The notes under the pieces: model-generated
Told to the model about the DNA's origin: nothing
Seen by the model: only the letters and a program-made list of their open reading frames with translations
The model's database searches: none
Shown: positions 11,240-53,472 of the stretch, piece after piece
How positions within the stretch are numbered: the first letter of the stretch is position 1
Layout: each line of letters begins with the position of its first letter
Source: Candidatus Lloydbacteria bacterium RIFCSPHIGHO2_02_FULL_50_18
GTDB taxonomy: Bacteria > Patescibacteriota > Minisyncoccia > Phycocordibacterales > UBA6899
Direction of reading: 5' to 3'
Length of the DNA stretch: 64,000 nucleotides
Assembly: GCA_001821395.1 (NCBI GenBank)
Contig: MHLM01000001.1
Span: 128,001 to 192,000, forward strand
Made by a program: the position numbers and the translations under genes

Positions 11240-11241
11240 GA

Positions 11242-29778: not shown

Positions 29779-29782
29779 ATCG

Positions 29783-30070
29783 CTAGAAAGGATTCTGATA
29801 AGTGTCGGTATACGGATTGACCGTTTTTTCGAACGGATTCGTATCAGGCATCTTTTCGACTGGATTGGATGCACCAGTTTTTTGATAAATATCTCCACCA
29901 AAAGATTCGGCGGGTACCGCCTCTGCCGGTGTGGCATTTGTATCACTTCCTGATAATGTGTTGTCGGTCCCCTTTTGAGAAGTACCGAAATAAAACCAAA
30001 ACATAAACCCTAAAATGACGGCGAACACGAGCGCGGCAAGCGCAAGTAGTACATTTTTTTTCATGATCAA
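29783..30070 (-). CDS. small secreted/membrane-anchored hypothetical protein
   Basis: N-terminal hydrophobic helix MKKNVLLALAALVFAVILGFMFWFYF, with a low-complexity Thr/Pro/Asn-rich remainder. Its stop lies 4 nt before the start of the repeat-protein gene. Confidence 0.4.
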   Translation of the reverse strand: MIMKKNVLLALAALVFAVILGFMFWFYFGTSQKGTDNTLSGSDTNATPAEAVPAESFGGDIYQKTGASNPVEKMPDTNPFEKTVNPYTDTYQNPF

Positions 30071-39830: not shown

Positions 39831-39902
39831 GGCGTAGTGGCGAAGTGGTAACGCATAGATCTGCAAAATCTACATGCACCGGTCCGATTCCGGTCTACGC
39901 CT
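39831..39902 (+). tRNA. tRNA-Cys (anticodon GCA), discriminator U73, unusual T-loop TCCGATT
   Basis: GGCGTAG..TAGAT-CTGCAAA-ATCTA..ACCGG-TCCGATT-CCGGT-CTACGCC-T. Confidence 0.65.
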
Positions 39903-39975
39903 CCCTAAAACATTTTGTTGCAAAATGTTCGGGCGATCATTTTGCAACAAAATGATTTAGCCATGAACAAATGCT

Positions 39976-40056
39976 GCCCGGGTGGTGAAATGGTATACAC
40001 AGGAGACTTAAAATCTCCCGTCGCAAGGCATGTGGGTTCGACTCCCACCCCGGGCA
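39976..40056 (+). tRNA. tRNA-Leu (anticodon TAA), long variable arm
   Basis: GCCCGGG..GGAGA-CTTAAAA-TCTCC-long arm-GTGGG-TTCGACT-CCCAC-CCCGGGC-A. Confidence 0.8.
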
Positions 40057-40118
40057 CAAAGTAAATAAATCCCTGATGGGATTTATTTACTTTGTGCCCG
40101 GGAGAAAGCAAGCTGCCT

Positions 40119-40221
40119 TGCTTTCGCGTGGGAGTCGAAGCCCGTTTCGTTATTTGCGAAGAATTCCTATTCTGAGAAAATCGAAATGGGGTGCTGACCC
40201 AGCAAAGATCGAACCTCCCAC
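40119..40221 (+). repeat. tRNA-3'-end-derived repeat unit (Leu-TAA locus)
   Basis: Starts GTGGGAGTCGAAGCCC, has internal AAGAATTCCTATTCTGAGAAAATCGAAATGGGGTGCTGACC and ends GATCGAACCTCCCAC. The ends GTGGGAG and CTCCCAC are complementary. Confidence 0.55.
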
Positions 40222-40643
40222 GTTAATAGTGTAAAATGAGTCAATGAATAAAAAGATCGTCGCATCACTGACTCTCTCAATCGTTGTTTCATTTCTGATA
40301 ATAGTTACTGTTTCGAATTATTTTGCTGAGAAAGAAATAGCGAACCAGCGCTCTGAATACACAACTCGAGGAATAGCCTTTGGCGAAACTCTTGCCCCGT
40401 AGGCATACCTTTTCCATATGCATGCATGGGGCTTTGTGTTCGTGAAACCAATATAAAAAATTTGCTTGTAGATGTGGTGATCTTTTGCATTCCCACATAC
40501 ATTCTTGTCTATGCTTTACTTGTTTTGATAGCCAAAAGAAGATCTCGAATAGGTGACGTTTCATCAAACGTAAATTAGCCCCAGTGTTCGAATCTATTGC
40601 GAATCTTCCTTGATTTGCTATGATAGCGAAGTTAGGGAAAATT

Positions 40644-40719
40644 GCCTTCGTAGCTCAGTTGGTAGAGCAGCTCGCTCTTAACGAGACGGTCGCAGGTTCG
40701 AATCCTGCCGGGGGCACCA
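40644..40719 (+). tRNA. tRNA-Lys (anticodon CTT), CCA encoded
   Basis: GCCTTCG..CTCG-CTCTTAA-CGAG..GCAGG-TTCGAAT-CCTGC-CGGGGGC-ACCA. The acceptor 3' end lies in a long palindrome that contains a terminator hairpin. Confidence 0.85.
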
Positions 40720-40784
40720 TAAAAAAATCCGCGACAAGCGGATTTTTTTATGGTGCCCCCGAAGAAGTGCCCTGCGGCACTTCT

Positions 40785-40881
40785 GGCAGGATTCGAAGCC
40801 GTTCTCCCATATTTCTGAATGATTCATATCATGAGGAAATGGGAAACGGGTACTGACGCAGTAGGCGTCGAAACTCCTGCC
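40785..40881 (+). repeat. tRNA-3'-end-derived repeat unit (Lys locus)
   Basis: Starts GGCAGGATTCGAAGCCGTTCTCCCATATTTCTGAA, has internal GGGTACTGACGCAGTAGGCG and ends TCGAAACTCCTGCC. Terminal inverted repeats are about 17 nt. Confidence 0.55.
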
Positions 40882-41090
40882 GTGAGATTTCAAAAGACTG
40901 AGTATATTTCGCATGCCTGCGCATGCAGGTCTTCAAAATACGAAACCCAACATGCAGAGCTTGTCTTCGTGTCCCCAATGGCATCGGTGTGATTTCGCAC
41001 TTGCGAACAAGTCTATGAGAACCCAACTGATGTCGGTTTATTCTTCCACTTCCCTTTTATCCAAATTCCAGTACTATAGCCCTACACCCT

Positions 41091-41172
41091 GCCCAGGTGG
41101 CGTAATTGGTAGCCGCGCCAGTCTTAGGAACTGGTCTCGCAAGAGGTGGAGGTTCAAGTCCTCTCCTGGGCA
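41091..41172 (+). tRNA. tRNA-Leu (anticodon TAG), long variable arm
   Basis: GCCCAGG..CCAGT-CTTAGGA-ACTGG-long arm-GGAGG-TTCAAGT-CCTCT-CCTGGGC-A. Confidence 0.8.
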
Positions 41173-41226
41173 CAAAGAAAACCGCGTAAGCGGTTTTTGT
41201 GTGCCCAGAGCGACTGAATACTACAA

Positions 41227-41458: not shown

Positions 41459-44400
41459 TCATTCATTTCCCATCAATTCGTTTATTTTAGCCGAAGTGGT
41501 TTTACCAACATATCCGGTCCCCCTAACAAGACCCCAGGGCGCTAAAACATCTTCGGTATATTTTTCTTGGAATTTTATAACTGCTTTATAAGTCAAGAGG
41601 CCGAAATAATCAGTTTCCTTACCCGGAGAGCCAACACCCGAATCAGCCAATCGAGTATCGGGGTCGGAATTGAGGAAAATTTGCAAGCGTTTTATGTCTG
41701 CATTTGTTTGTCGGTATTGTCGGTATTGAGTAAATGGGTTAGTAAATGGCAAAATATTTATTCGCAAATTTTCCGTTACAGTAGTACCCGATCTTAGAAC
41801 GATTATGCTTGAAGCAGTATCTGATGATCTGCCGTAGGCAGTGTAAAATTTAACATAAACGGTATATTGTCCATCCGGACAGATTAGATTTTTAAGTGTA
41901 CCGCCAAATTTTGAGCATAAGTCCCATAGCTTGAAGGCGACATAATCTTCTCGGCTGGCATCAGTGAAATCTCCAGTCATTGAAATCGCCAATTGCTTGA
42001 TGTCCATTCCCGCATTAAAACCAAGTATGACATTTCTATTTGACGTTGTGCTTGATCCGGAATTTACAAAAACCTTAAATCCACCTGTCGGCGTTATCGG
42101 CAAATTACTCCAACCTGCTGGCATACCACCTCCCCCACTTGAAGTTACAGCAGGAGTTACTAAGACGGCGTCCCAAATCAAAGTAAAATTATGAGAGTTG
42201 GAATTTCCGACGTTATCTGAGGCAGTAAAACTGATTACATAAGTTCCGTTAGTATCGACTGAGATAGTTGTGCTCGACGCGGTACCGTCTCCAAACGTTA
42301 CCGCACCAGGTCCTGAAACTTTTGCCCACTGATAAGTTGAAGCGTTCATATCGCTCCCGGAATCTGAAGCTGCAGCGACTTGAGTAAATGTAGCTCCTTT
42401 ATTTTGATCATCTCCAGCACTAATGGTGGGATTTTGTTTATCAATTTTTATGATATTTGACGATTCTGTGTTCTCAATATTCCCTAAATTATCTACTGAG
42501 TAGTACCTTATATATTGCTGACAACTAGAACCTGAGTCACACGACAAACTAACACTTGTTCCTTCAGTGGTTGGCACGCAGCTATTATTAGTGTCAACGC
42601 AATAATATGTATGCGCTATTCCGCTTCCGCTATTATCAGACGGGTTCAAATTAATAGTAAGATCTGAACTATGCCAATTATCATCAGCATTATCGGTTGT
42701 AGTTGGAGACGTATTTCCCACTACAATCGATTCATTAAATGAAACGCTCCAATCGTAAAGGGGCAGTCCGGTACTGCCTGAAGATGGCGATACGCTCGTA
42801 TCTGTATCTCGAATATTACCACCTACGGCAGTAGCATCGCCGGCTTGTGCGCACCAAGATGCAACAACATAGCAACTCCAGGCGTATCTCAAATGTTGAT
42901 CTGTGCCAGTCGGCGTATCACTTAGAGTAATTTTTACTTGACTGTTATTATTTATAAGTTCTACTGAATCTATTGAAACACTATTGCCACCAGCCTGTGT
43001 AAATTCAAACCCATAATCAGGACGCTCCGCAACGTTGGCAGTATCAATAGCTAATGTTCCATAAGGGATATTATAATTGGCGATTATTACGTTACTCGAT
43101 CTCAAAATCGATGATGGCATGAGGGGATTCCAAGTCTGTCCCTCAAACAATACTTTATCCATAACTTTTGCAAACATCTCTCCCATTTTTTTTCTTGGGT
43201 ATTCACGTCCATATGGAGCTTGTCCGACCGATAATGATATTGATACTTTGGCTGGACCAAAATAATTTTTCCGGGATTATCTATATGCGCGTTTAATTGT
43301 GCTTCAGCTATTTCCCCCGTTGGCGCGGAATTCATTTGATTTATAAATAATGGGATAGTGTCGTTACGGCTAGTCAGAGTATTAAGATCGGTTTCATAAT
43401 CCAACTGCCATTCTTCAAGATAACTTTTATAATTTGCTCCGGCACCACCCACATAATCACTTTCTCCGTGAATTGAAGTAACTGCGATGGGTCGATACAG
43501 CTCGCCTAGCGTACTCTCAACGTAAGTTTTAGTTACACTTGCCTGTGTCATACCCTTGTTATACCAAGATGTCCCCTTTTTTAAACCACTGTAGTTAGTT
43601 CCACCATGTGCATGGAGGCCAACGACAATTGGACTGAGAAGATCTTCATACGCATGAAGGCTATTGGCCATTCCTGATGAGATTGTTTCCACATTACCGC
43701 CCTCTCCTTGCCCAGACTCAATTAATGGTATGAGCGGAGCAGCTGTTCCTTCAACTCCGGGGGTAAGCATAAGATTATTATAAGGCTGCGTAACGCTTAT
43801 AGGCGGTGAAGCATAATAAACTACGGCCAGACTTTGCCCCGTTGACAATATCTGATAGTAGGTTGTTTGCTCATTTACCGCGAAGGAAACAGTCCCGGAA
43901 TTATTTGTAAGAGCAGGAGTTGCTGACACGCTTATTATATGAGGAGACCCACTCGTACTTGTAGGTGTATAGGTGAATGTTTTTGCATCTGACGAACCGG
44001 ACCACGACAACGAAGTTGGCGCAAACGTTCCGGCACCAGTTGATGACGATGTAATCGTGCCGGTATATTCGCCATCAGGCGTCACAATAAAATTACCGGA
44101 TGCTGTAGCCATCGTGCCAGACGACGGGCCGGCAAAAGTAAATGATGTAGCGGGTGGCGCAAGGGTGACGACTGAAAATTCAGAACTGTCTGCGGTTGCA
44201 GGGACGCCATCGGTAACCCTGAGCTTGTAATAATAAATCGTAGCGGGAGATAGTCCGGTATCTGATAATGTGAGCGATGTTTGTCCGCTTAAAATATTCC
44301 CAACACCCGGCGTAAAACCGCTGCTTATGCTACGGTACCACTGATAAATATAGGGTGCTATTCCTCCTGTTGCTTCCGAAGATGAAAGATCGATACTTGA

Positions 44401-45189
44401 ATCTGTTTTCTCCATTAAACTAATTGAGCCGGCGCTAAAAGTAGAAAACGGATATTCAAGCCCTGTGCCCGAATTGTATAAACTCGTGATCTCATCTGGA
44501 GTTAGTATTTTTTTCCAAAAACCAACAGAATCAATGCGCCCGTCCAAATACATTGTAGCACCAGAAGCCTGAAATCTCCCGATTGTAAATGCTGCGCTAG
44601 TATTTGCCGGCTCGGAACCGGCGACGCTTGTATTGGTATACGTATTATTAACAGTTATGGTATTAGTATGAGTGGTAGCATTGTGGCTACATGTGAGAAA
44701 ATACCATTGGCCAATCTGGACTCCCCCCGTTGGAGTCACATATGCATCTACCGATGGAAAAGTAGAACAGCGAAACGTGTCGGAACTAACACCGTAATAC
44801 AAAGCATATTCTCCGGTGCTGCCATATTTTCCAACAAACGTCATATTTGTTGATTTGGTATCAAGATAGACCCATGCAGAAATAGTAAAATCTATACCGC
44901 CTATACTCAAACTGGGATTATCAACGATGCTTAAATATTCTGAGTTAGCCATAGTTAACTGCGCAGAATTTCCAAGTTTGCCAACTCCTTGAGTCACCGT
45001 ATTGTTGTCGGTCAGATTATTTGAACTAACACTATCTGCTCGCGTACCACTTACCTCATCTAATTTCCAATAAGAAATAAGTGATGTGGATAAATCCGTT
45101 GCAAAAACATGAGAGAAAAATTGTGTGTACAACGACACCGAAATTAAAAGCAGGGCAAATATTTTAAAATTTTTTCGAAAGGTTTTCAT
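41459..45189 (-). CDS. large secreted surface protein (about 1250 aa if read through): signal peptide, LamG-like lectin domain, Ig/FN3-like region, SASA/sialate-O-acetylesterase-like (SGNH) domain, beta-rich repeats, C-terminal peptidoglycan-binding domain. Interrupted by a frameshift at an A8 tract at 43186-43193, giving ORFs 43102-45189 and 41459-43186.
   Basis: N-terminus MKTFRKNFKIFALLLISVSL is a signal peptide. LamG segments FTISAWVYLD and GRIDSVGFWKKILTPDEITSLYNSG. Esterase motifs GQSLAV, HGESDY and DKLHMD. Adding one A to the coding-strand A8 run joins ...DKLHMDVNTQEKK to MGEMFAKVMDKV..., restoring the SASA C-terminal consensus. C-terminal PG_binding-like segment DIKRLQIFLNSDPDTRLADSGVGSPGKETDYFGLLTYKAVIKFQ. 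Confidence 0.55.
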
Positions 45190-45523: not shown

Positions 45524-45551
45524 TTGACTTTTCCCCTATTTTTGCTATAAT
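45524..45551 (+). promoter_or_regulatory. sigma70-like promoter (TTGACT, 16-nt spacer, TATAAT) upstream of the 45620 gene, with AGGAG RBS at 45607
   Basis: cccTTGACTtttcccctatttttgcTATAATgctgac. A consensus -35/-10 pair of this quality is rare in the window. Confidence 0.55.
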
Positions 45552-45619
45552 GCTGACAGATATTTTCGTACTATCCGTAAGGGTAGATTGACACTTTCAT
45601 AGTTTTTTTAGGAGCTACC

Positions 45620-46606
45620 ATGACTATTTCTGAAAGCACCTTAGACAAGGTCGGCGCAATGGGCGCTGCATTCTCTCTCATTGACCTCATTCGCGGGTTC
45701 AGCCATGGAGGCGTTCACGTCGGCGGAGGCACGGGCGGAGTAGGTTTTCTTACTTCTCTTCTCACTGTGCTCGTCAGAGTATGGGAAGAAAAAGGCGGGA
45801 GCATGAAAGACGAAAGCGAAATGCTCGAGTCAATGTTTGCAAACCCGCAAGCAAAGAATGAAAAACTCACACCGCAGGAACGTACCAAGATCGCGGCCGT
45901 CATCAAGGCGATGACTCCGGCAGAGCAGAAAGTGTTCCGCATCGCAATTTTTGTGATGGACCCCGATGTGACGACGATCGAAGTACCGGAGAAAAAAGAC
46001 AAGGACGGCAAAGTCATCGCTGTAGCCGGAAAACGAACCGAAAAAACGGGAATTGATCCTCGGGTCAATGTCCTGCACGGTATCGCCGAGCACGTCCATG
46101 ACAACCTCGATAACGTCACCGAAGTGGCCGAATTACTTCGCGGTACGGGGGCGCTGGGTGGAAACAACGAGGCACTTAAGTTTCTCGTCAAGGTACAAGT
46201 AGAGCTCAAAAAGCTTCTTTGCACGTTCTTCGGGGTCGAATCCGTCGATCTTATCACCTTCGACATGGTCAAAGAAAAGGCAACCGTGCTCATCGGAAAT
46301 ATCGGTGTGCCGAATGCCAATTTGCCGGGACCTCCGGTCGGTCCGCTCATGCGAGTGGGTCGCCTCATCACGCCGGGGAGTTATCGCAATGCTCCTGCAT
46401 CGAAAAGCGTGAAGTCCAAGAAAGAGGTAAGGTCGACGAGCCTGCTGAAGATGTTTGCAGTGGTAGCATGTATCACCGGCATCCTCGCTTACGGCTTGTA
46501 CTTCGGAGCTTCAAAGTACCGAGCGTACCAAAGAGATACTGAGATTGACAACATCATCAACGCGTATCAACCGACCAAAACGTCGGCTGAGCAGCCGATG
46601 AAATAG
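45620..46606 (+). CDS. hypothetical protein (328 aa) with Gly-rich N-terminal hydrophobic segment and C-terminal TM anchor
   Basis: No recognisable domain. Its stop lies 18 nt before the next gene, consistent with an operon. Confidence 0.5.
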   Translation: MTISESTLDKVGAMGAAFSLIDLIRGFSHGGVHVGGGTGGVGFLTSLLTVLVRVWEEKGGSMKDESEMLESMFANPQAKNEKLTPQERTKIAAVIKAMTPAEQKVFRIAIFVMDPDVTTIEVPEKKDKDGKVIAVAGKRTEKTGIDPRVNVLHGIAEHVHDNLDNVTEVAELLRGTGALGGNNEALKFLVKVQVELKKLLCTFFGVESVDLITFDMVKEKATVLIGNIGVPNANLPGPPVGPLMRVGRLITPGSYRNAPASKSVKSKKEVRSTSLLKMFAVVACITGILAYGLYFGASKYRAYQRDTEIDNIINAYQPTKTSAEQPMK

Positions 46607-46624
46607 GTCTCAAGGAGAAATCTC

Positions 46625-48247
46625 ATGAGTTTATGGAAAAAAGCAGGCTACGGCCTTTTGGGAATTTCGGCCATTCTCGGTCGAAGGACCCTCTCGTCCG
46701 CATACGACCGCCAGATCGAGGGCATTACCGACGCGCATATCAAATATGTCGGCGGCGCAATGCTCTTCGGAGTTTGCGGTCTCGTGCTTAACTTCATCTT
46801 TTTGATGAATGGGATGCACGGCATGCAAACAGCGCTCTTCGGAGTTATCTGTCTTGCGTCACTGTATTACATGATCGCGCCAAAAATGAGCATTCCGCTC
46901 ATCATCGCGGCCGCAGCGGTTCATGCCGGAGAGGCGAAAGATCAAGCGAAGCTCAAACTGCTCGGCGACGGAGTGAAAGACATTGTCAATCTGGCAAGTC
47001 TGGCACTCTTTTGGATCGGTGTGTACATCGTCGGAACGATCATTGCCCCATGGGACTTGAGTTGGGAATTCTTTCTTTTCCTTCACATGTTCATCATCAT
47101 GGCACTACTGCTCTTTGTGAGCGGCAAGGCATCGGTCAGCACGAAAGTGTACGATAATTGCTTCAAGTTCACCATTGCTGTGATCGTTGTCAGCGTACTC
47201 ACGATCGCAATCGGACGTGAGCACGTAGGACCATTATGGGCGCAATTCTCCGCAAGCAAAACTTCTCGTATCGAGGCCAAGTTGAACGCAAGTTCGATTA
47301 AGACCGCAGACGAAGCGTCAGCCGAGTGGATTGAGAAGAATGTTCACATCGATAAGCGGACCGGTGAGCAATTCGTCATCGTTACCGACAAGGTCACCGG
47401 CAAACAAAAACCGGTCGCCGCACAGCCCTACATTGAGAGGGAGAAGCAACGCAGGAACGAAACCATCCGCTCGGTCACGGAAAAAGGCGGAAAGACCAAT
47501 GCGACAAACACGAGACAGGATAATAAGGGAGGTTACTTCTCTTATGAATACTGGAACGCAAAAGCGCATGAATGGTCGGAATCCTGGGGGGTACCACTCT
47601 TCGTCGGCATCATTGCAGTATTGGCAATGGTCGTGGCACACTTCATTCCCGTCATCTGGGGAGGAAAGAAACTCTTTGGAAAGTCAGGTACTGAAACGGC
47701 AAAGGTTGTTAGTACGCCGAAGGAGTCCGGAAACGGACTTGTTGCCACATTACTCGTTGCGGGTGCTCTCGTGTATATTGGCTTTCAGTATACGCAAGGT
47801 GAACGAGGAGCAAAAGCCAATATGGCACCGCAAACAAGCGTTGCGACATATGCCACACTAAAGAAAGGAGATGCCGGTCTGTGGATGGCCTACTGGAGTG
47901 ACATGAACGGGCACTCCATTTACAGACTTCCTCAAGATAGATGGCATGGGCGAACTGTTTCGCTTTTGCCAGGCAGCTCTGTTTCGAATGTGTCCGACAT
48001 CACGCTTGTTTTTGATCCTAATGATCCAAGTACCAATATCTCATTTAACGGAGATTGCGTTGCCGGTAGCTACGATATTCAAAAAGAGTGCGTCGGATAC
48101 TGGAGAACAGAAGTGGGGTCCGGTACTTTCAGGCTTGAATGGTGGGGAAGCCAGGAAACATTCCACATTGCACTGTTTCCGGGACAACTGCCGGCAAAAG
48201 GACAGGCACAAGCCATCAAGGAGATACGCTTCGTAAAAAAACAATGA
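46625..48247 (+). CDS. hypothetical polytopic membrane protein (540 aa; about 6 N-terminal TM, soluble insert, 2 more TM, C-terminal beta-rich domain)
   Basis: Hydrophobicity pattern only. Followed by a bidirectional terminator at 48278-48312. Confidence 0.5.
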   Translation: MSLWKKAGYGLLGISAILGRRTLSSAYDRQIEGITDAHIKYVGGAMLFGVCGLVLNFIFLMNGMHGMQTALFGVICLASLYYMIAPKMSIPLIIAAAAVHAGEAKDQAKLKLLGDGVKDIVNLASLALFWIGVYIVGTIIAPWDLSWEFFLFLHMFIIMALLLFVSGKASVSTKVYDNCFKFTIAVIVVSVLTIAIGREHVGPLWAQFSASKTSRIEAKLNASSIKTADEASAEWIEKNVHIDKRTGEQFVIVTDKVTGKQKPVAAQPYIEREKQRRNETIRSVTEKGGKTNATNTRQDNKGGYFSYEYWNAKAHEWSESWGVPLFVGIIAVLAMVVAHFIPVIWGGKKLFGKSGTETAKVVSTPKESGNGLVATLLVAGALVYIGFQYTQGERGAKANMAPQTSVATYATLKKGDAGLWMAYWSDMNGHSIYRLPQDRWHGRTVSLLPGSSVSNVSDITLVFDPNDPSTNISFNGDCVAGSYDIQKECVGYWRTEVGSGTFRLEWWGSQETFHIALFPGQLPAKGQAQAIKEIRFVKKQ

Positions 48248-48277
48248 ACGTTCTTTTGCTCACAAGAGCAAAGACCA

Positions 48278-48312
48278 AGGCATGATTGCCTTGGTCTTTT
48301 TTTTAAAAAACA
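48278..48312. terminator. bidirectional intrinsic terminator between convergent genes
   Basis: aaagaccaaggcaatcatgccttggtctttttttt. The stem is perfect and flanked by A-run and T-run. Confidence 0.6.
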
Positions 48313-48331: not shown

Positions 48332-48688
48332 CTAAATAGGAACAGTTGTTTGAATAGTAGGCGCGGTACCCAGTCCGCCGAGCGGTGCAAGTCCCAATTC
48401 TGTTTGGATGAATCCGATGATCGACCAGAGCGCTACAATCACAAAAATACCCACCATGCCCCATACGAGAAACATCCTCCCCTCCTGCACCGCCTTCTCA
48501 TCATCGGCATGCCAAATGAATTTTACGACACCCCAAAAAAATACCGCAACCGCACAACCCAACAGTACGGGCATGATGGTCTGCATGAGATTAATGAGAT
48601 CATCCATGATGGTGATCACCGACGTCTGAGCAAGTGCAAATGTTGGTAAGAAAAAAAACGTACCGAGAATAAAAGATCGTTTAGACAT
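48332..48688 (-). CDS. VirB2/TrbC-like (T4SS-pilin-like) small membrane protein, paralog 1 of 8
   Basis: Signal peptide ending AQT, then two TM helices joined by a charged loop (AVAVFFWGVVKFIWHADDEKAVQEGRMFLVWGMVGIFVIVALW) and a short Gly/Thr-rich C-tail. Confidence 0.5.
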   Translation of the reverse strand: MSKRSFILGTFFFLPTFALAQTSVITIMDDLINLMQTIMPVLLGCAVAVFFWGVVKFIWHADDEKAVQEGRMFLVWGMVGIFVIVALWSIIGFIQTELGLAPLGGLGTAPTIQTTVPI

Positions 48689-49001
48689 AATTCATCAGCG
48701 TCATATCGCCGCCTATTGAGCTAATAAGGAATCGCATGATACCAAACACGGCAACCATGATGAACATGCCAATGATACCCCATATCATACCGAGACGCCC
48801 CTTATCGCGCATCTCCGCATTATCCGGATTCCAGATATACGCGACCACTCCGTAGATAAAATAGACGGTCGCGAGTGCAAAGAGCAAAGCGATGATAGGA
48901 TTCAAAATATACGTCGAGATGTTGCCGACGAAAGTGAGCACCGATGCGGGAATCGGGGGCGCAGCTGCTTCTGCTACGCTTGGAAAAAAAATGTTTAACA
49001 T
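48681..49001 (-). CDS. VirB2/TrbC-like small membrane protein, paralog 2 (start MLNIFFPSV at 49001)
   Basis: Same architecture: LFALATVYFIYGVVAYIWNPDNAEMRDKGRLGMIWGIIGMFIMVAVFG. Overlaps paralog 1 by 8 nt. Confidence 0.5.
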   Translation of the reverse strand: MLNIFFPSVAEAAAPPIPASVLTFVGNISTYILNPIIALLFALATVYFIYGVVAYIWNPDNAEMRDKGRLGMIWGIIGMFIMVAVFGIMRFLISSIGGDMTLMNYV

Positions 49002-49104
49002 GAATAAATTATAGCATCTCAATAAAAATTGACTATCCGAATGAGCAAACAAAAACCCCCGAGAACATTCTCGGGGGGTTTTTGTAATCCTATTTTTATC
49101 AGGA

Positions 49105-49461
49105 CTAGACTCCAGGAACAGCAAATGCTGGTGGTGTTGACGTGGTTATTGTCCCAGTCAATCCAAGCTGAGTCTGAGCCCAACCAAGAATACCCCAGAG
49201 AGCGACCATGACAAAGATCGCAACCATACCCCAGATCATAAGCGTCTTACCCTGCTCCTTTGCGGCTTCATCGCTTGCATTAGCGATATATTTGACCAAG
49301 CCCCAAAAGAACGCAACGACCGCAAGACCCATGAGTAATGGGATCAAAAGCGAGATAATACCCTGAACGCTGTTTACGAGATCGGCGATACCGGTGAGCA
49401 CGGTTGCTGCAGAAGCAACTGCGGGACCCACAAGCATCATTCCGATGATAAATTTCTTCAT
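49105..49461 (-). CDS. VirB2/TrbC-like small membrane protein, paralog 3 (start MKKFIIGMML)
   Basis: Signal peptide AVASAAT, then LAVVAFFWGLVKYIANASDEAAKEQGKTLMIWGMVAIFVMVALWG. Confidence 0.5.
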   Translation of the reverse strand: MKKFIIGMMLVGPAVASAATVLTGIADLVNSVQGIISLLIPLLMGLAVVAFFWGLVKYIANASDEAAKEQGKTLMIWGMVAIFVMVALWGILGWAQTQLGLTGTITTSTPPAFAVPGV

Positions 49462-49635
49462 AGATTTGATAATAATTAATAAATACACCGCCAAAACTAT
49501 AACTTAATGCTATCGCACAAACCGATGTCAAGCAATAGAAAAAAAAGATACCTGTGGATTACTGTTTCCGTTACCCGGAATCACAAAAATCGACCTCTTC
49601 ACATGCCTGATGATCATATTTTTGTACGATAAGAG

Positions 49636-49998
49636 CTAATGGATGCCGCCAGTCGAATCCACATAATCCGGTGCGCCTCCCGGCATAATCCCAAATGTAT
49701 CAACAAGAAGAATTCGCACTATTCCCCATACGGAGAAGAGCACGACGAACGCGATAATCCCCCAAATGATGAATTGCTTTCCTTTTTCACGTTCAACGGG
49801 ATCGTTCGCATTACCGATAAATTTTACGACGCCCCAGAAAAAGAACATGATGGCAGCGATCCAGAAAAATTGTCCGGCCTTCACCAAAATATTGTAGACA
49901 AGCACCTCGAGGTCAAAGACGTCCGTGACTTGCGCGAAAACAAGGGATGGAGTGCCAAGAAGCGTCGCAATACCGAACTGTTTGTTTATTGTTCTCAT
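49636..49998 (-). CDS. VirB2/TrbC-like small membrane protein, paralog 4
   Basis: Signal peptide VFAQVT, then FWIAAIMFFFWGVVKFIGNANDPVEREKGKQFIIWGIIAFVVLFSVWG. Confidence 0.5.
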   Translation of the reverse strand: MRTINKQFGIATLLGTPSLVFAQVTDVFDLEVLVYNILVKAGQFFWIAAIMFFFWGVVKFIGNANDPVEREKGKQFIIWGIIAFVVLFSVWGIVRILLVDTFGIMPGGAPDYVDSTGGIH

Positions 49999-50013
49999 GA
50001 AAATAAAAAATAA

Positions 50014-50358
50014 TTATGAGGGCGTACTCAAAAAAGGAATACCGAACGAACCTCCAAAGAGTGTTGAATTCAAGATACCGATGAGTCCCCACATCCCAAG
50101 CACAACCGCGATACCGATGATGGCCCACAGCAGATAGGGCTTGATCTCTTCGCGCCTTTTCTCATTATCTGAATTCATCATATAGAGCGCGATACCATAT
50201 ACGAGTCCGGCGATAAGCGCGGCAAAGAAAATGGAGATAATGTTCTTTAAGACTCCCAAGAGCAACTCGACGAAACTCTTGAAGTCCGTCGGCGTAGTAG
50301 CGGCAAAAGTAATAAGGGGGGAACAGAAGACTAGCGTCGCAAAGATGAATTTTTTCAT
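50014..50358 (-). CDS. VirB2/TrbC-like small membrane protein, paralog 5 (start MKKFIFATL)
   Basis: Signal peptide ITFAATT, then FFAALIAGLVYGIALYMMNSDNEKRREEIKPYLLWAIIGIAVVLGMWG. Confidence 0.5.
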   Translation of the reverse strand: MKKFIFATLVFCSPLITFAATTPTDFKSFVELLLGVLKNIISIFFAALIAGLVYGIALYMMNSDNEKRREEIKPYLLWAIIGIAVVLGMWGLIGILNSTLFGGSFGIPFLSTPS

Positions 50359-50365
50359 ATACATA

Positions 50366-50704
50366 TTAAAATAATATCGCCGTACCATATACCATGTCTG
50401 CGATGACTTTTGCACCAAGGATAATGAGCCCGCCAACGAGTGTCCACGTGAGCCAGATCTTCGCCTTCGTCACCTGCGCTTCATCCCCCCCCGCGGTGAC
50501 GAACTGAAAACCAGCATAAATAATACAGCACGCGAGCGCGGGTATGCCGACCAGCTGCATGATCTCGATCAGCCAATAGATAAAATCCTGAAGCGTAAGA
50601 ATTGAGGGAGCCGGATTTGATAGCAGTGTCCATGATGCAGCAAGTGAAATTCTTGGTTGCGAGAGGGTGAGTGTGGCGAAAGATACTAAGGCTGTTTTTT
50701 TCAT
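50366..50704 (-). CDS. VirB2/TrbC-like small membrane protein, paralog 6
   Basis: Signal peptide ISLAASW, then GIPALACCIIYAGFQFVTAGGDEAQVTKAKIWLTWTLVGGLIILGAKV. Confidence 0.5.
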   Translation of the reverse strand: MKKTALVSFATLTLSQPRISLAASWTLLSNPAPSILTLQDFIYWLIEIMQLVGIPALACCIIYAGFQFVTAGGDEAQVTKAKIWLTWTLVGGLIILGAKVIADMVYGTAILF

Positions 50705-50723
50705 AAAGGTATTGGGATTCAGA

Positions 50724-51083
50724 TCACAATGAGCTAATAGTCGCCTGTATCGCTGCGGCGATCACTTTCGCACCGAGCAGCACGAGTGCCCCCAACAGTG
50801 TCCACTTGAAGGTGGTACGAGCCTTCGCAATCTGCGCCTCATTGTCCCCCGCGGTCACAAAGAGAAATCCGCCATAAATGATGAACATCACAATAATGGG
50901 CACTCCGATAAGAAAAACGAGGTCGACGATAGCGAGCAGGAGATCGGGAATAGAGGTAATCCCACCGTAAGTGATCGGGTTTACATAGCTTGACGAAGCA
51001 GCAGACGCCGTATGCGTACCCATTAAAAGTCCGAGCGTTGTCAGGTTTAATGGTTTTGTTATGTAGTGTTGCATAAGTATCAT
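50724..51083 (-). CDS. VirB2/TrbC-like small membrane protein, paralog 7
   Basis: Signal peptide HTASAASS, then GVPIIVMFIIYGGFLFVTAGDNEAQIAKARTTFKWTLLGALVLLGAKV. Closest relative of paralog 6. Confidence 0.5.
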   Translation of the reverse strand: MILMQHYITKPLNLTTLGLLMGTHTASAASSSYVNPITYGGITSIPDLLLAIVDLVFLIGVPIIVMFIIYGGFLFVTAGDNEAQIAKARTTFKWTLLGALVLLGAKVIAAAIQATISSL

Positions 51084-51087
51084 GAAT

Positions 51088-51561
51088 TTATGGCCCCAAG
51101 AAATTAAATGACGATCCGGTACCAAGGAAGAATTCGAGGATGAAATTAACAGTCACCCACGCCGCAAGTGCGATAATGAGTCCCCAGAACACATTCAAGA
51201 AAACGTCGTGCGCCTGTTTGACTTGGCCTTCATTGCCACGATTGGTCACGTAGAGAAAACCGGCATAGGCGAACATGACCGCACCCAATGGTGCTGCGAT
51301 CTTGAAAATGAGGAAATTGATCACATTCTGCGCAGTCTCGATCACGTCGTTAAAATAACATTCCTCATGATTACCCGGGGTGGTAGCATTTGATGCCCAG
51401 ACCAAGGGGCTCGGATCTTTGACCGCACCGTCTCCATTAATGTCAAATCCGCAAGGAATGATCGTTGACGGTGAAGCTGCGAATACAGAGAATGGGGTCA
51501 CGAGTATCAAAACACCGAGGAATATCGCAGAAACAAATCGATGAGTGACACTGTTGTGCAT
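51088..51561 (-). CDS. VirB2/TrbC-like small membrane protein, paralog 8, with extra Cys-containing N-terminal module
   Basis: Signal peptide SVFAASP, extra segment CGFDINGDGAVKD..NHEECYF, then AAPLGAVMFAYAGFLYVTNRGNEGQVKQAHDVFLNVFWGLIIALAAW. Confidence 0.5.
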   Translation of the reverse strand: MHNSVTHRFVSAIFLGVLILVTPFSVFAASPSTIIPCGFDINGDGAVKDPSPLVWASNATTPGNHEECYFNDVIETAQNVINFLIFKIAAPLGAVMFAYAGFLYVTNRGNEGQVKQAHDVFLNVFWGLIIALAAWVTVNFILEFFLGTGSSFNFLGP

Positions 51562-51576
51562 AGCAATAAGTGAAGT

Positions 51577-52896
51577 TTAGTAGCGAGACAAAGCAACGTC
51601 AAGTTCCGTGTTCAATTTTGCAACAGCCGTAGCGGTGTCATTCCTCCCTGACGAGACTGATTCGACCATCGCTTGGAATGCTTTGTCGGAAATTTCCGGC
51701 TTTGGATCAAGCCAGGTACGTGCACGAATGGCCGCTTCGAAAAATACCGCCATCGCCGCATCGGTCGGAGGAACCGCGAGCAGGTCTCTTCGAACGGGGG
51801 GCAGATTGTACGCCGCAGCAAAGTCTTTTGCGGGATTCGCATCAAAGAGCAGTTTCTGCATAGCAACAAAGGCGGTGCTTTTATTTTTGGAGGTCTTCAG
51901 CACAGCGAGACCATGCACCTTTGCAAATGTTACCTCAGCCGTCGTTCCTCGCGGTTCCGGAACCTGTGCGACCGCAAAATTCAGGTGTGGATTTTTTGCC
52001 TTGATCTCGCTATATGCACTCGCGTAATCGAAATATACCGCGAGATTTCCGTTGATGAATTCATTGCGCGAATCACTGCGCGCACGACTCCATGTAAAAA
52101 TATTTTTGAGCGGATTCGAAAAATCCATAAAGAAACGGAGGGCAGAAACAACATCCTGATCGGCAACAAATTGACCGGCATCGGATTTTGCAACCATGCT
52201 CTTGGGTGTTTTCCCATTCATCTTGACGATAGGGTTACCCACCTGAAGAAAGAGCATCGCAAGAATGTCTTTCGCATGGGTCACATTGACATACTCCCCA
52301 AATGAAATTGCGCTCTGAACAAGTTCGGAGGTACGTACGTCGCGTTTTGTGAATTTGGGGGTAAGCGTCAAGAACTCATCCCAGAACTTGGGCACTTCGG
52401 TAACCGATGCATTGGTAAAAATATCTCTGTTCCAATACATGACCATCGGGTCGATCGCAAACGGGAGCGCGACCAGCCCCTCATCGCGCATATATATCTC
52501 CGATGCCTGAATGAAGCTCGATGAAAAAAGACCCGGTGAAACAGCAGTGTACGGTACCAGCTCGATCTTATCGAAATGGCGCAGAATGAGATCATCGGGC
52601 AAAAGCAGAACATCGGGGCCCGTTCCGCTTGCGAGCGCCTCAACGATATCACTATCGAAATTTTTCGGATCATGAAATTGATACGAAATACTAAAATTCT
52701 TTTTATATATATCGTTAAATTTCTTGATCGTCTCCGAAAGACCCGCGGTGTCCTGAAAAGTACCCCATATGACGACGTTCCCCTGAGCCCCAGGAACGGT
52801 CGTGTCACCCTTTTTAGGATCCGACGTTGCAAACACAAGAAGACCGACAACGGCCATTATTCCAAAAAAAGTAAGAAGAATCGTCTGAAATTTCAT
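51577..52896 (-). CDS. extracellular solute-binding protein (ABC transporter substrate-binding, cluster 1 / sugar-type)
   Basis: N-terminal TM/signal, then GNVVIWGTFQDT, with two-lobe SBP fold segments throughout. 439 aa. Confidence 0.5.
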   Translation of the reverse strand: MKFQTILLTFFGIMAVVGLLVFATSDPKKGDTTVPGAQGNVVIWGTFQDTAGLSETIKKFNDIYKKNFSISYQFHDPKNFDSDIVEALASGTGPDVLLLPDDLILRHFDKIELVPYTAVSPGLFSSSFIQASEIYMRDEGLVALPFAIDPMVMYWNRDIFTNASVTEVPKFWDEFLTLTPKFTKRDVRTSELVQSAISFGEYVNVTHAKDILAMLFLQVGNPIVKMNGKTPKSMVAKSDAGQFVADQDVVSALRFFMDFSNPLKNIFTWSRARSDSRNEFINGNLAVYFDYASAYSEIKAKNPHLNFAVAQVPEPRGTTAEVTFAKVHGLAVLKTSKNKSTAFVAMQKLLFDANPAKDFAAAYNLPPVRRDLLAVPPTDAAMAVFFEAAIRARTWLDPKPEISDKAFQAMVESVSSGRNDTATAVAKLNTELDVALSRY

Positions 52897-52911
52897 AGGT
52901 ACAACGTAGCG

Positions 52912-53472
52912 CTATGCCCGCATCTCCGTACTATTCACCTGATAAAGACCTTTCCGAAATATAAGACCATAATGAAAATTTCCCGCATTGACTGTTTTTT
53001 CAAAGGTGAAATTCAGCGATTCAACGAGCTTTCGCGCTTCTGTTTCAGGAAACACTTGTTCGGTCGTCGGTCCCATATTATTGAAAGACGCCGTCCAGTC
53101 GATCAGCATGAGTCTTCCACCCTGCTTGAGTACTCGGCGTGCCTCATCCAGAACGTTTTTTTTATCGGATGCCTGAAAGAGCACGTTCGAAACAACGACG
53201 ACATCGCATACCCCATCGCTCAATTTCGTCCCGCCCAAAAGTTCGACATCTCCCCAGAGAAATGAAACATTGCCGATGTGCTTTTCTTTACAGGTATTTT
53301 CGAGGCGCGTAAGCAAGTCCTTTTGCACCTCGATCGCGTACACCTTCCCTGTTCCGTGCATGGCTTCTGCCGCAGCGATTGTATATGCACCCGACCCCGC
53401 GCCAAAATCTGCAACCACCAAATTATCGGCTAACCCTAATTGTTCGATATTCTTCTCCGGTGCTGAAAACAT
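52912..53472 (-). CDS. class I SAM-dependent methyltransferase
   Basis: Motif I VVADFGAGSGAYT, motif II VYAIEV, post-I acidic residue, and motif IV region DVVVVSNVL. Confidence 0.65.
   Translation of the reverse strand: MFSAPEKNIEQLGLADNLVVADFGAGSGAYTIAAAEAMHGTGKVYAIEVQKDLLTRLENTCKEKHIGNVSFLWGDVELLGGTKLSDGVCDVVVVSNVLFQASDKKNVLDEARRVLKQGGRLMLIDWTASFNNMGPTTEQVFPETEARKLVESLNFTFEKTVNAGNFHYGLIFRKGLYQVNSTEMRA

What the first reader, a model, noticed from the sequence alone, without database searches (positions are those of the whole stretch)
45524..48247. Two-gene operon of large uncharacterised membrane proteins under a near-consensus promoter, convergent on the pilin array
A promoter (TTGACT, 16-nt spacer, TATAAT) with an AGGAG RBS drives a 328-aa protein with a Gly-rich N-terminal hydrophobic segment and C-terminal TM. 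This is followed 18 nt later by a 540-aa protein with about eight TM helices and a C-terminal beta-rich extracytoplasmic domain that ends in a Trp-rich module (YWRTEVGSGTFRLEWWG).

Neither resembles a family I can name. Their position is suggestive: the shared bidirectional terminator with the pilin array links them to it. The polytopic protein has the general shape of a VirB6/TrbL-type channel component.

They could be an uncharacterised surface-structure or secretion module.
Basis: inference. Interest (0 to 1): 0.5.

Follow-up and report, generated by a model that had tools for sequence, protein, structure and literature searches.

The report
Swappable membrane-protein operon beside pilin array
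Two real but uncharacterised membrane-protein genes of a Candidatus Lloydbacteria genome form a fast-evolving, cassette-swapping operon that almost always sits tail-to-tail with a VirB2-like pilin gene array; it shows no detectable relation to the VirB6/TrbL channel protein, and its function is still unknown.

Summary
A near-consensus promoter, a leader, two ribosome-binding sites, a 328-aa ORF, a 540-aa ORF 18 nt later and a strong terminator are all present. All are conserved in relatives.

The genome is a Candidatus Lloydbacteria MAG (Patescibacteria, class Paceibacteria). The neighbouring "pilins" are eight PF18895 VirB2-like genes.

ORF1 reads as a cytoplasmic protein anchored by one C-terminal transmembrane (TM) helix. 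ORF2 reads as a 7-TM protein with a ~120-aa loop and a ~150-aa two-cysteine beta domain outside the cell.

Neither protein matches Pfam, NCBIfam, PHROGs, PADLOC or PDB sequences. Profile comparisons with VirB6 (TrwI family), PrgH and other R388/pCF10 T4SS parts score at most 1.6% probability.

Both families are tiny: 33 ORF2 representatives among 1.84 billion proteins, and ORF1 in 6 of 185,579 species genomes. In all ~15 distinct loci with full-length ORF2 homologues, the pair converges on a pilin array.

ORF2 is the fastest-evolving gene of the block and is mosaic. In sister loci the same promoter and leader drive an SPFH/Band-7 protein plus a shorter membrane protein with the same C-terminal domain.

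My best reading is a variable membrane scaffold-and-partner module, probably working with the pilins. It is not a detectable VirB6. Both structure models failed.

The parts
45524..45551 (+). Sigma-70-type promoter: TTGACT, 16 nt, TG-extended TATAAT.
   Evidence: scores it 11/12. The TTGAC and the -10 are invariant in an alignment of 11 loci. The same promoter also precedes SPFH-first alleles in L034 and L035.
45552..45619 (+). 5' leader. It contains a small hairpin (CTATCC/GGGTAG, 45571-45586), a conserved GATTGACAnTTT element (45586-45597) and the RBS AGGAG (45610-45614).
   Evidence: Read from the sequence. TTGACAA-TTT is conserved across 11 loci, while the hairpin loop length varies. The element is also present in L034 and L035. 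Its function was not tested.
45620..46606 (+). ORF1, 328 aa. It has a variable Gly-rich N-terminus, a strongly conserved core (VRVWEEKGGSMKDESEMLES ... RTEKTGVDPRxNVL ... GALGGNNEAL), a single C-terminal TM helix at about residues 275-297, and a short conserved tail (NxYxPT..SA..P).
   Evidence: There is no signal peptide, K/R-rich sequence precedes the TM helix, and some homologues lack the TM helix. From this I infer that the bulk of the protein is cytoplasmic.
46607..46624 (+). 18-nt intergenic spacer with the RBS AAGGAG (46612-46617).
   Evidence: Read from the sequence. A GGAG precedes the ORF2 homologue in all 12 loci, and the gap ranges from -1 to 87 nt.
46625..47215 (+). ORF2 N-terminal module: a cytoplasmic N-terminus followed by TM1-5 (residues 42-62, 67-85, 121-142, 147-166, 177-197).
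   Evidence: Hydropathy and positive-inside counts. The module is exchangeable: L002 and L010 show no similarity here although the flanks are 81-86% identical at DNA level.
47216..47584 (+). ORF2 central hydrophilic loop, residues 198-320 (helix, beta-hairpin, helix). Predicted to lie outside the cell.
   Evidence: This is the only stretch of the AF2 model with pLDDT 70-79. The topology is inferred from the K/R distribution.
47585..47791 (+). ORF2 TM6 (322-344), a K-rich cytoplasmic loop, and TM7 (371-389).
   Evidence: The architecture is conserved across the family.
47792..48247 (+). ORF2 C-terminal beta-rich domain, residues 390-540, plus the stop codon. Conserved motifs are LPQxxWHG and GxC...CxGxW...G.FrLEW, with two conserved cysteines (C478, C489).
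   Evidence: Most family members have exactly two Cys in the tail. The domain is homologous to the C-domain of the shorter proteins that follow SPFH genes in L030, L032 and L112.
48256..48271 (+). Small hairpin (GCTC-ACAA-GAGC) preceded by the conserved 3' motif GTTCTTTTGC.
   Evidence: Present in most related loci, with the stem kept through changes (GCTC/GAGC, GCGC/GCGC, GTGC/GCAC). Function unknown.
48270..48307 (+). Intrinsic terminator: a 13-bp stem with a 4-nt loop and a T8 run, lying between the ORF2 stop codon and the stop codon of the last pilin gene.
   Evidence: An equivalent hairpin with a T-run is found in 12 of 12 loci.
48332..51561 (-). Array of eight VirB2/TrbC-like pilin genes (PF18895 T4SS_pilin), convergent on ORF2.
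   Evidence: All eight are above the Pfam cut-off of 26.6 bits. The array is conserved next to the pair in relatives.
51577..53472 (-). Context: a solute-binding protein (SBP_bac_1/8, 439 aa) and a small SAM methyltransferase (186 aa). They lie upstream of the pilins on the same strand, separated by 15-nt gaps, so they are probably part of the same operon as the array.
   Evidence: The gyrA-MTase-SBP-pilin synteny is seen in most loci.

Best explanation
**What is shown**
- ORF1 and ORF2 form one transcription unit with a strong promoter, a conserved leader, two ribosome-binding sites and a terminator.
- The unit is confined to Lloydbacteria-type Paceibacteria.
- The operon occupies a fixed slot, tail-to-tail with the VirB2-like pilin array.
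- The slot behaves as a replaceable cassette. The N-terminal membrane module and the C-terminal domain of ORF2 are exchanged independently between genomes.
- In sister genomes the same promoter and leader drive an SPFH/Band-7 protein followed by a shorter polytopic protein that ends in the same C-terminal domain.

**What is inferred from sequence features**
- ORF1 is a cytoplasmic protein anchored by a C-terminal TM helix.
- ORF2 is a 7-TM protein, N-terminus inside, that displays a ~120-aa loop and a ~150-aa probably disulfide-bonded beta domain on the cell surface.

**What I propose from this**
- The pair forms a membrane complex in which ORF1 is the cytoplasmic organising partner. It sits in the place an SPFH protein holds in other alleles, although it is not homologous to SPFH.
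- ORF2 is the partner that presents a rapidly diversifying ectodomain.
- The complex acts together with the adjacent pilins, for example in anchoring or assembling them or in contact with the host cell.
- It is not a detectable VirB6-type channel subunit.
For: **Operon signals**
- They are present in the window and conserved in relatives.

**Topology**
- Hydropathy, positive-inside counts and two conserved Cys in the C-terminal tail.

**Restricted orphan families**
- 33 ORF2 representatives in 1.84e9 proteins.
- 14 ORF1 clusters.
- ORF1 in 6 of 185,579 species genomes.

**Linkage to pilins**
- The pair converges on the pilin array in every full-length locus examined, despite four different upstream contexts. 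It stays next to the three nearest pilins where the SBP/MTase/gyrA part is gone (L001, L013).

**Fast evolution**
- ORF2 is 30-55% identical to its homologues in loci where SBP is 58-77%, MTase 67-77%, IF-2 62-88% and ClpB 85-96%.

**Mosaicism**
- L002 and L010 share 79% identity in the C-domain, but their N-modules show no similarity.
- L006 and L021 share 61% in the C-domain, again with no N-module similarity.
- L003 and L006 share 65% in the N-module but only 31% in the C-domain.
- At DNA level, a 1.56-kb tract running from about ORF1 codon 212 to ORF2 codon 405 has almost no similarity between L002 and L010 (one 41-nt island), while the flanks are 81-86% identical.

**Sister alleles**
- The upstream gene of the convergent pair matches PF01145 Band_7 in 14 of 18 loci. 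Four of the scores listed exceed the curated cut-off, and hhalign against E. coli QmcA gives 97% probability.
- The downstream gene in L030, L032 and L112 carries the ORF2 C-domain.
- The promoter and leader are shared between ORF1-first and SPFH-first loci.
Against: - No expression, localisation or interaction data exist. Every functional step is inferred.
- Housekeeping genes such as gyrA are also syntenic with the array, so adjacency alone is weak evidence of shared function.
- One SPFH-type pair (L112) is followed by a lytic-transglycosylase-like gene rather than pilins, within the 1.4 kb of contig available.
- ORF1 is not detectably SPFH: hhalign gives 1.8% against the SPFH neighbours and 0.7% against QmcA.
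- The ORF2 C-domain is not detectably NfeD: 0.5% against E. coli YbbJ, and no PF01957 hit.
- Both AlphaFold models were unusable (pLDDT 53 and 41), so no fold-level test was possible.
- The pair and the pilins are on opposite strands, so they are not co-transcribed.
Confidence: 0.42

Rival explanations
1. ORF2 is a highly diverged 'extended VirB6' and ORF1 is an accessory subunit. Together they would form the membrane platform on which the neighbouring VirB2-like pilins are extracted and polymerised, powered by a VirB4 encoded elsewhere.
For: - The architecture fits the description of extended VirB6 proteins in PMC12857230: five or more TM helices plus a central and a C-proximal hydrophilic domain.
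- The pair is adjacent to VirB2-like pilins in all full-length loci.
- VirB6 and VirB8 homologues are often undetectable in Patescibacteria (PMC12102498).
- The likely source genome, GCA_001818945.1, is listed as VirB4-positive.
Against: - No TrbL/VirB6 hit in Pfam or NCBIfam for any of 27 family members.
- hhalign gives 0.3% against a 7-sequence MPF_T VirB6 seed and 0.1% against PrgH. It gives at most 1.6% against all other R388/pCF10 T4SS proteins tested.
- No virB4-like ORF in the window.
- The 5-TM N-module, the part that would correspond to the VirB6 core, is swapped for unrelated sequence or absent in sister alleles.
- The family is confined to a tiny clade, whereas pilin arrays occur across the phylum.
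Confidence: 0.12
2. The pair is a general membrane-organisation or quality-control module of the SPFH-partner kind, with gene order like qmcA-ybbJ in E. coli. It would have nothing specific to do with pilins, and the adjacency would be inherited synteny.
For: - Sister alleles encode a true SPFH protein followed by a small polytopic protein with a C-terminal beta domain, the same order as E. coli qmcA-ybbJ.
- The whole gyrA-MTase-SBP-pilin region is syntenic, so neighbours need not be functionally related.
- L112 shows the SPFH-type pair without pilins in the sequence available.
Against: - The pair stays next to the pilins where the rest of the synteny is broken (L001, L008, L009, L013).
- ORF1 is not SPFH and the C-domain is not NfeD by any sequence test.
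- Extreme diversification and cassette exchange are unusual for housekeeping scaffolds and mirror the diversity of the pilins themselves.
Confidence: 0.3
3. The pair is a membrane-tethered regulator and sensor (ToxR/ToxS or TcpP/TcpH logic). ORF1 would be a tail-anchored cytoplasmic regulator and ORF2 its sensing partner, controlling the convergent pilin operon.
For: - Weak PHROG matches of ORF1 residues 73-107 to a sigma-factor and a repressor family, E about 0.1.
- The low-confidence AF2 model shows a helix-helix-beta-hairpin arrangement at residues 85-142.
- ORF1 is cytoplasmic and membrane-anchored.
Against: - No DNA-binding domain in Pfam, NCBIfam or PDB sequence searches of 14 family members.
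- The PHROG E-values are not significant.
- An SPFH protein is the alternative first gene, which does not fit a regulator.
Confidence: 0.05
4. ORF2 is a pilin-modifying enzyme, such as a polytopic oligosaccharyltransferase or O-antigen-ligase-like protein (TfpO/PglL logic) or an acetylase, encoded next to its substrates.
For: It is a polytopic membrane protein with outward-facing domains, encoded beside pilin genes.
Against: - No Wzy_C, GT-C, TraX or other enzyme family hit in 27 members.
- No conserved polar or acidic residue in the membrane module across the family. Only Cys478 is at least 90% conserved.
- The membrane module is replaced wholesale between close relatives.
Confidence: 0.04

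Closest known systems
SPFH/Band-7 protein plus small membrane partner operons (e.g. E. coli qmcA-ybbJ; SPFH-NfeD pairs)
   Same: - Two tightly spaced genes for a membrane-anchored organiser and a polytopic partner ending in a beta-rich domain.
- In sister loci, behind the same promoter and leader, the first gene really is an SPFH protein (PF01145; 97% hhalign probability to QmcA). The second gene carries the same C-terminal domain as ORF2.
   Different: - ORF1 in the window has no detectable SPFH domain and is anchored by a C-terminal, not an N-terminal, TM helix.
- The ORF2 C-domain (~150 aa, two Cys, predicted outside) shows no similarity to NfeD.
- ORF2 has an extra 5-TM module and a 120-aa loop.
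VirB6/TrbL and 'extended VirB6' T4SS inner-membrane subunits (TrwI of R388, PrgH of pCF10)
   Same: Polytopic protein with at least five TM helices plus large central and C-proximal hydrophilic domains, encoded beside VirB2-type pilin genes.
   Different: - No sequence or profile similarity.
- Not in a virB4 cluster.
- The membrane core is exchangeable between close relatives.
VirB2-like pilin arrays of Patescibacteria (PF18895; essential array in Southlakia epibionticum; 441 arrays reported in PMC12102498)
   Same: The neighbouring eight-gene array is a typical member of this kind. The pair shares its hallmark of high sequence diversity.
   Different: The published surveys were centred on virB4 neighbourhoods. 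I found no description of a convergent membrane-protein operon flanking arrays that lie away from virB4 in the papers read.

Membership tests
VirB6/TrbL (Pfam PF04610; MPF_T VirB6) | Significant match to the family profile | tested here: not met
   No hit for ORF2 at E<=0.1, nor for any of 27 family members at E<=0.01 in Pfam or E<=0.05 in NCBIfam. hhalign of the family against a 7-sequence TrwI/TraD-type seed gives 0.3% probability.
VirB6/TrbL (Pfam PF04610; MPF_T VirB6) | Polytopic inner-membrane protein with at least 5 TM helices and a large hydrophilic loop or domain | tested here: met
   7 TM helices, a 120-aa loop and a 150-aa tail. The architecture is conserved in the family. This feature is generic and not diagnostic.
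VirB6/TrbL (Pfam PF04610; MPF_T VirB6) | Encoded in a T4SS cluster near virB4 | tested here: not met
   None of the 30 window ORFs scanned against Pfam (28 with hits, all of ordinary housekeeping or surface-protein kinds) is VirB4- or VirD4-like. The 760-aa ORF at 27664-29946 has no hit at all. The relatives' 20-kb loci show no VirB4 either.
VirB6/TrbL (Pfam PF04610; MPF_T VirB6) | VirB6 fold, compared with solved T4SS structures | not testable with these tools
   The AF2 model of ORF2 has mean pLDDT 40.7, so a fold search would be meaningless.
PrgH / MPF_FATA VirB6-like (Gram-positive T4SS) | Profile similarity to PrgH | tested here: not met
   hhalign of the ORF2 family against pCF10 PrgH gives 0.1% probability. 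The template was a single sequence, so sensitivity is low.
SPFH/Band 7 (PF01145), considered for ORF1 | SPFH domain detectable by profile | tested here: not met
   No hit in 14 ORF1 family members at E<=0.05. hhalign gives 1.8% against 18 SPFH-type neighbours and 0.7% against E. coli QmcA, while the control (neighbours against QmcA) gives 97.2%.
SPFH/Band 7 (PF01145), considered for ORF1 | N-terminal membrane anchor followed by the SPFH domain and a coiled coil | tested here: not met
   The only clear TM helix in ORF1 is C-terminal (residues 275-297). The N-terminal segment is below the TM threshold.
NfeD (PF01957), considered for ORF2 | NfeD C-terminal domain detectable by profile | tested here: not met
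   No PF01957 hit in 27 plus 25 proteins. hhalign of the C-domain alignment against E. coli YbbJ gives 0.5%.
NfeD (PF01957), considered for ORF2 | Encoded immediately next to an SPFH gene | tested here: inconclusive
   Not true in the window, where ORF1 is not SPFH. True for the C-domain homologues in L030, L032 and L112.
T4SS_pilin PF18895 (the neighbouring array, not the finding itself) | Score above the Pfam gathering threshold; signal peptide plus two hydrophobic helices | tested here: met
   All eight ORFs score 27.6-39.1 bits against a cut-off of 26.6. The alignment shows the A-x-A signal end and two hydrophobic helices.
Anti-phage defence systems (PADLOC) | Match to any defence-system protein model | tested here: not met
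   The only hit is a chance-level homing-endonuclease match to ORF1 (E 0.0067, 13 bits). There is nothing for ORF2 or the L032 pair.

The most novel reading that the evidence does not exclude
The slot next to VirB2-like pilin arrays in Paceibacteria may encode a previously unrecognised pilus-associated membrane complex: a cytoplasmic organiser (ORF1 or an SPFH protein) plus a polytopic protein with a hypervariable surface domain. Such a complex would anchor or nucleate the monoderm T4SS-type pilus, or act as its host-recognition adaptor. Cassette exchange would then tune which host cell the epibiont can attach to.
Probability: 0.2. Interest if true: 0.7.

Novelty: new variant of a known kind. 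Interest (0 to 1): 0.4.

Why it matters
VirB2-like pilin arrays and the T4SS are essential for epibiotic growth in the one Patescibacterium tested genetically (PMC10633639). How a monoderm cell would assemble or anchor such pilins is unknown, and VirB6/VirB8-type parts are often missing from these genomes (PMC12102498).

A conserved, strongly promoted, rapidly diversifying membrane operon that sits next to the arrays in nearly every locus examined is a concrete candidate for a missing accessory. Its SPFH-containing sister alleles suggest a testable scaffold mechanism.

If instead the pair is only a variant SPFH-partner module kept nearby by synteny, it is an ordinary lineage-specific membrane operon. 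The families are very small, so the direct reach is limited to Lloydbacteria-like organisms.

Tried and rejected
**Structure**
- AlphaFold2 on ORF1 with a 14-sequence alignment gave pLDDT 53.
- AlphaFold2 on ORF2 with a 3-sequence alignment gave pLDDT 40.7.
- I ran no fold search on the ORF2 model because its confidence was too low for any match to mean anything.

**Sequence libraries**
- Pfam, NCBIfam, PHROGs, PADLOC and PDB sequence or profile searches gave nothing significant.

**Searches that returned little**
- A third word-based homologue search with alignment A3 returned only the same three proteins.
- A metagenome scan with ORF1 motifs found no relative.
- A 15-pilin alignment was too diverse for a pattern scan.

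**Profile comparisons**
- hhalign against R388 and pCF10 T4SS proteins, Tn916 Orf13, E. coli QmcA and E. coli YbbJ was negative for both ORFs.

**RNA**
- Rfam found only tRNAs plus sub-threshold matches. One of these, STnc250 at 30 bits against a gathering score of 42, lies over the terminator.

**Ideas rejected**
- ORF1 as an ATPase: there is no Walker A motif in the sequence.
- ORF2 as an enzyme: no conserved polar residues in the membrane module.
- A defence system.

**Not obtainable**
- The T4SS component table of PMC12102498 is truncated in the held copy, so the position of virB4 in this genome could not be read.


Full report
**1. What is there**

The window comes from a Candidatus Lloydbacteria MAG from the Rifle aquifer (locus tags A2845_02915 and A2845_02920). 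It is probably GCA_001818945.1, class Paceibacteria. This follows from the 48% G+C of the window and the genome list in PMC12102498.

- Promoter: TTGACT-16-TATAAT at 45524-45551, 11 of 12 consensus positions, with a TG extension.
- ORF1: AGGAG, then 45620-46606 (328 aa).
- ORF2: 18 nt further on, after AAGGAG, at 46625-48247 (540 aa).
- Terminator: a 13-bp hairpin with a T8 run at 48270-48307.
- Pilin array: eight minus-strand ORFs at 48332-51561. All pass the Pfam cut-off for PF18895 T4SS_pilin, the VirB2/TrbC-like pilin family of Patescibacteria.

**2. The operon is real**

In 11 of 11 related loci with upstream sequence, a TTGACW-N16-18-TAYART promoter lies 88-115 nt before the ORF1 homologue.
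- The -35 and -10 are invariant in the alignment.
- A leader element, GATTGACAAnTTT, is conserved.
- GGAG precedes both genes.
- A strong hairpin with a T-run follows the second gene in 12 of 12 loci.

**3. Anatomy of the two proteins**

ORF1:
- It has no signal peptide.
- Its Gly-rich N-terminal segment falls below a TM threshold and carries R or E in homologues.
- Its core is very well conserved.
- It has one C-terminal TM helix preceded by a K/R-rich stretch. Some homologues lack this helix.
- I therefore read it as a cytoplasmic, tail-anchored protein. This is an inference.

ORF2:
- It has seven hydropathy peaks.
- The K/R distribution fits an N-terminus inside, with the 120-aa loop (residues 198-320) and the 150-aa C-terminal domain outside.
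- The C-terminal tail carries exactly two cysteines in most family members, which fits an extracytoplasmic disulfide.
- The architecture is conserved even where sequence similarity is gone: about five TM helices, a 100-180-aa loop, one or two TM helices, and a 150-200-aa tail.

**4. Family size and known families**

The families are very small.
- The word-indexed search found 3 ORF2 and 14 ORF1 clusters.
- An exhaustive HMMER scan of 1.84 billion representatives found 33 ORF2 relatives.
- A scan of one genome for each of 185,579 species found ORF1 in six, all Lloydbacteria or Paceibacterota MAGs.

**5. Test of the VirB6/TrbL idea**

I built a 7-sequence VirB6 seed from R388 TrwI and plasmid homologues. 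I also took PrgH and other T4SS proteins from pCF10.
- hhalign of the 27-sequence ORF2 family gave 0.3% probability against VirB6 and 0.1% against PrgH.
- It gave at most 1.6% against every other R388 or pCF10 component tested. ORF1 behaved the same way.
- None of the 30 window ORFs scanned against Pfam is VirB4- or VirD4-like, although the genome is listed as VirB4-positive elsewhere.

Only the gross shape agrees with 'extended VirB6' as described in PMC12857230. Membership is therefore not supported. The small seeds and missing structures make this a moderate negative, not an absolute one.

**6. Co-localisation with pilins**

- I searched all fetched loci with HMMs built here. Every distinct locus with a full-length ORF2 homologue has the order ORF1-like, ORF2-like, then a convergent pilin array.
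- These loci are the window, L001, L002, L003, L006, L008, L009, L010, L013, L014, L018, L021, L038 and L111, plus the truncated L033.
- Upstream contexts differ: IF-2/RbfA, a MacB-type ABC transporter, a recombinase with ribosomal protein genes, and an LDcluster4 gene.
- In L001 and L013 only three pilins remain and the SBP/MTase/gyrA part is absent, yet the pair is still adjacent.
- The most distant member looked up (P0046, E 1.7e-6) shows the same arrangement.
- In L018 the upstream 274-aa protein is a remote ORF1 homologue (hhalign E 6e-5).

There is a caveat. The wider region gyrA-MTase-SBP-pilins is itself syntenic across many loci, so adjacency is suggestive rather than proof.

**7. Hypervariability and mosaic structure**

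Identity to the window proteins in related loci is as follows:

| Protein | Identity to the window protein |
|---|---|
| ORF2 | 30-55% |
| ORF1 | 47-72% |
| Pilins | 40-75% |
| SBP | 58-77% |
| MTase | 67-77% |
| IF-2 | 62-88% |
| ClpB | 85-96% |

The two halves of ORF2 have different histories:

| Locus pair | N-terminal module | C-terminal domain |
|---|---|---|
| L002 vs L010 | no detectable similarity | 79% |
| L006 vs L021 | no detectable similarity | 61% |
| L003 vs L006 | 65% | 31% |

At DNA level, L002 and L010 are 81-86% identical in three stretches:
- the promoter and leader;
- the ORF1 core;
- everything from the ORF2 C-domain through the pilins to the MTase.

In between, a 1.56-kb tract from about ORF1 codon 212 to ORF2 codon 405 has almost no similarity, apart from one 41-nt island. 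This is cassette replacement inside a conserved frame.

**8. Alternative cassettes: SPFH**

A metagenome scan with a pilin alignment returned 80 loci with pilins 36-66% identical to the query pilin (the third pilin of the window array).
- By my count from the listings, about 30 of about 32 informative loci have one to three membrane-protein genes convergent on the array end.
- The upstream gene of that pair matches PF01145 (SPFH/Band 7) in 14 of 18 cases. Four of the scores listed exceed the curated cut-off.
- The set matches E. coli QmcA with 97% hhalign probability.
- In L030, L032 and L112, the gene after the SPFH gene is a shorter polytopic protein. Its C-terminal domain is homologous to that of ORF2: 27% identity over 153 aa, E 1e-12, and HMM E-values from 1e-25 to 1e-28.
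- L034 and L035, which have the SPFH-position gene first, carry the same promoter and leader as ORF1-first loci: AAATACTTGACT-N18-TATAAT ... TTTTTGACAAYTTT ... AGGAGG. The L034 gene is 46% identical to the L032 SPFH protein, and the L035 gene is 48% identical to it. The L035 gene has no Pfam hit of its own.

ORF1 and an SPFH protein are therefore alternative first genes of one operon slot. They are not homologous by any test: 1.8% and 0.7% probability. The ORF2 C-domain is not detectably NfeD either: 0.5% against YbbJ, and no PF01957 hit. The gene order, SPFH first and then a small membrane protein, is that of E. coli qmcA-ybbJ.

**9. Interpretation**

Three things are shown:
- a real operon;
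- a strong and nearly invariant association with pilin arrays;
- extreme diversification by cassette exchange, with an SPFH-containing alternative allele.

Three things are inferred:
- the topology;
- a complex between ORF1 and ORF2;
- a role with the pilins.

I favour a membrane organiser-plus-partner complex that displays a variable ectodomain and acts with the pilins (confidence about 0.4). The main rival is a general SPFH-partner-type membrane module kept nearby by synteny (about 0.3). A diverged VirB6 platform remains possible but is disfavoured (about 0.1).

One counter-example to strict linkage is L112. There an SPFH-type pair is followed by a lytic-transglycosylase-like gene, with no pilin in the 1.4 kb of contig available.

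**10. Novelty and score**

Both proteins are orphan families annotated as hypothetical. The papers I read on Patescibacteria T4SS centre on virB4 neighbourhoods and do not describe this flanking operon.

I rate it a new variant of a known kind (SPFH-partner-type two-gene membrane operons). The window's own genes fail the membership tests for SPFH and NfeD.

Interest is moderate (0.4). It is a concrete, testable lead on how monoderm ultrasmall bacteria handle VirB2-like pilins. It is restricted to a small clade and has no functional data.

Noticed in passing
window 51577-53472 (-), with gyrA at 54297-56774 (-): A small SAM methyltransferase and a membrane-anchored solute-binding protein lie directly upstream of the eight pilin genes on the same strand, with 15-nt gaps. 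This looks like a single MTase-SBP-pilin operon. The gyrA-MTase-SBP-pilin order recurs in dozens of metagenomic loci. Whether the MTase or the SBP acts on or with the pilins is unknown.
   Followed up: partly
window 41459-45189 (-): Two large predicted surface proteins sit between the tRNA cluster and ORF1: 575 aa with a PKD domain, and 695 aa with a Laminin_G_3/ConA-like domain, overlapping by 85 nt. The relatives L003, L006 and L010 have no large genes at this position, so this looks like an insertion specific to this genome.
   Followed up: partly
window 39831-41173 (+): A cluster of four tRNA genes (Cys-GCA, Leu-TAA, Lys-CTT, Leu-TAG) lies just upstream of the inserted surface-protein genes. 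It is a possible integration hotspot.
   Followed up: no
window 45571-45597 (+): The leader of the operon has a small hairpin with variable loop length across relatives, followed by a conserved GATTGACAAnTTT element about 25 nt before the RBS. The element is also conserved in SPFH-first alleles. It may be a regulatory site. There is no Rfam match.
   Followed up: partly
window 48248-48271 (+): A GTTCTTTTGC motif sits right after the ORF2 stop codon, followed by a 4-6-bp hairpin that is kept through paired changes in relatives, just ahead of the main terminator. A sub-threshold Rfam match (STnc250, 30 bits against a gathering score of 42) lies over this region and is probably chance.
   Followed up: partly
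window 27664-29946 (-): A 760-aa ORF with no Pfam hit at E<=0.001 and no PADLOC hit. It was not examined further.
   Followed up: no
window 8561-11353 (-) and 30259-32943 (-): Two ClpB-like AAA+ genes in one 64-kb window. The first (930 aa) matches only the second AAA module and the D2-small domain well, so it may be a diverged paralogue.
   Followed up: no
L003 13506-14327, L111 3748-4548, L006 13276-13896: In several relatives the pilin array is interrupted after the second pilin by a membrane-enzyme gene: FA_hydroxylase, or a PEMT/ICMT-like methyltransferase. These enzymes could modify lipids or proteins.
   Followed up: no
L112 2611-6298: An SPFH protein plus an ORF2-type C-domain protein is followed by a convergent gene for a coiled-coil, lytic-transglycosylase-like protein (weak SLT_2 hit) instead of pilins. 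This is either a VirB1-like hydrolase or an unrelated cell-wall enzyme.
   Followed up: partly
window 48332-51561 (-): The eight pilins fall into two sequence classes. One class has an FFWGxVKFI...WGxxxxFV core (the five nearest ORF2). The other has a YAGFxFVTAGG...K core (the three farthest). Several adjacent genes overlap by a few codons.
   Followed up: no
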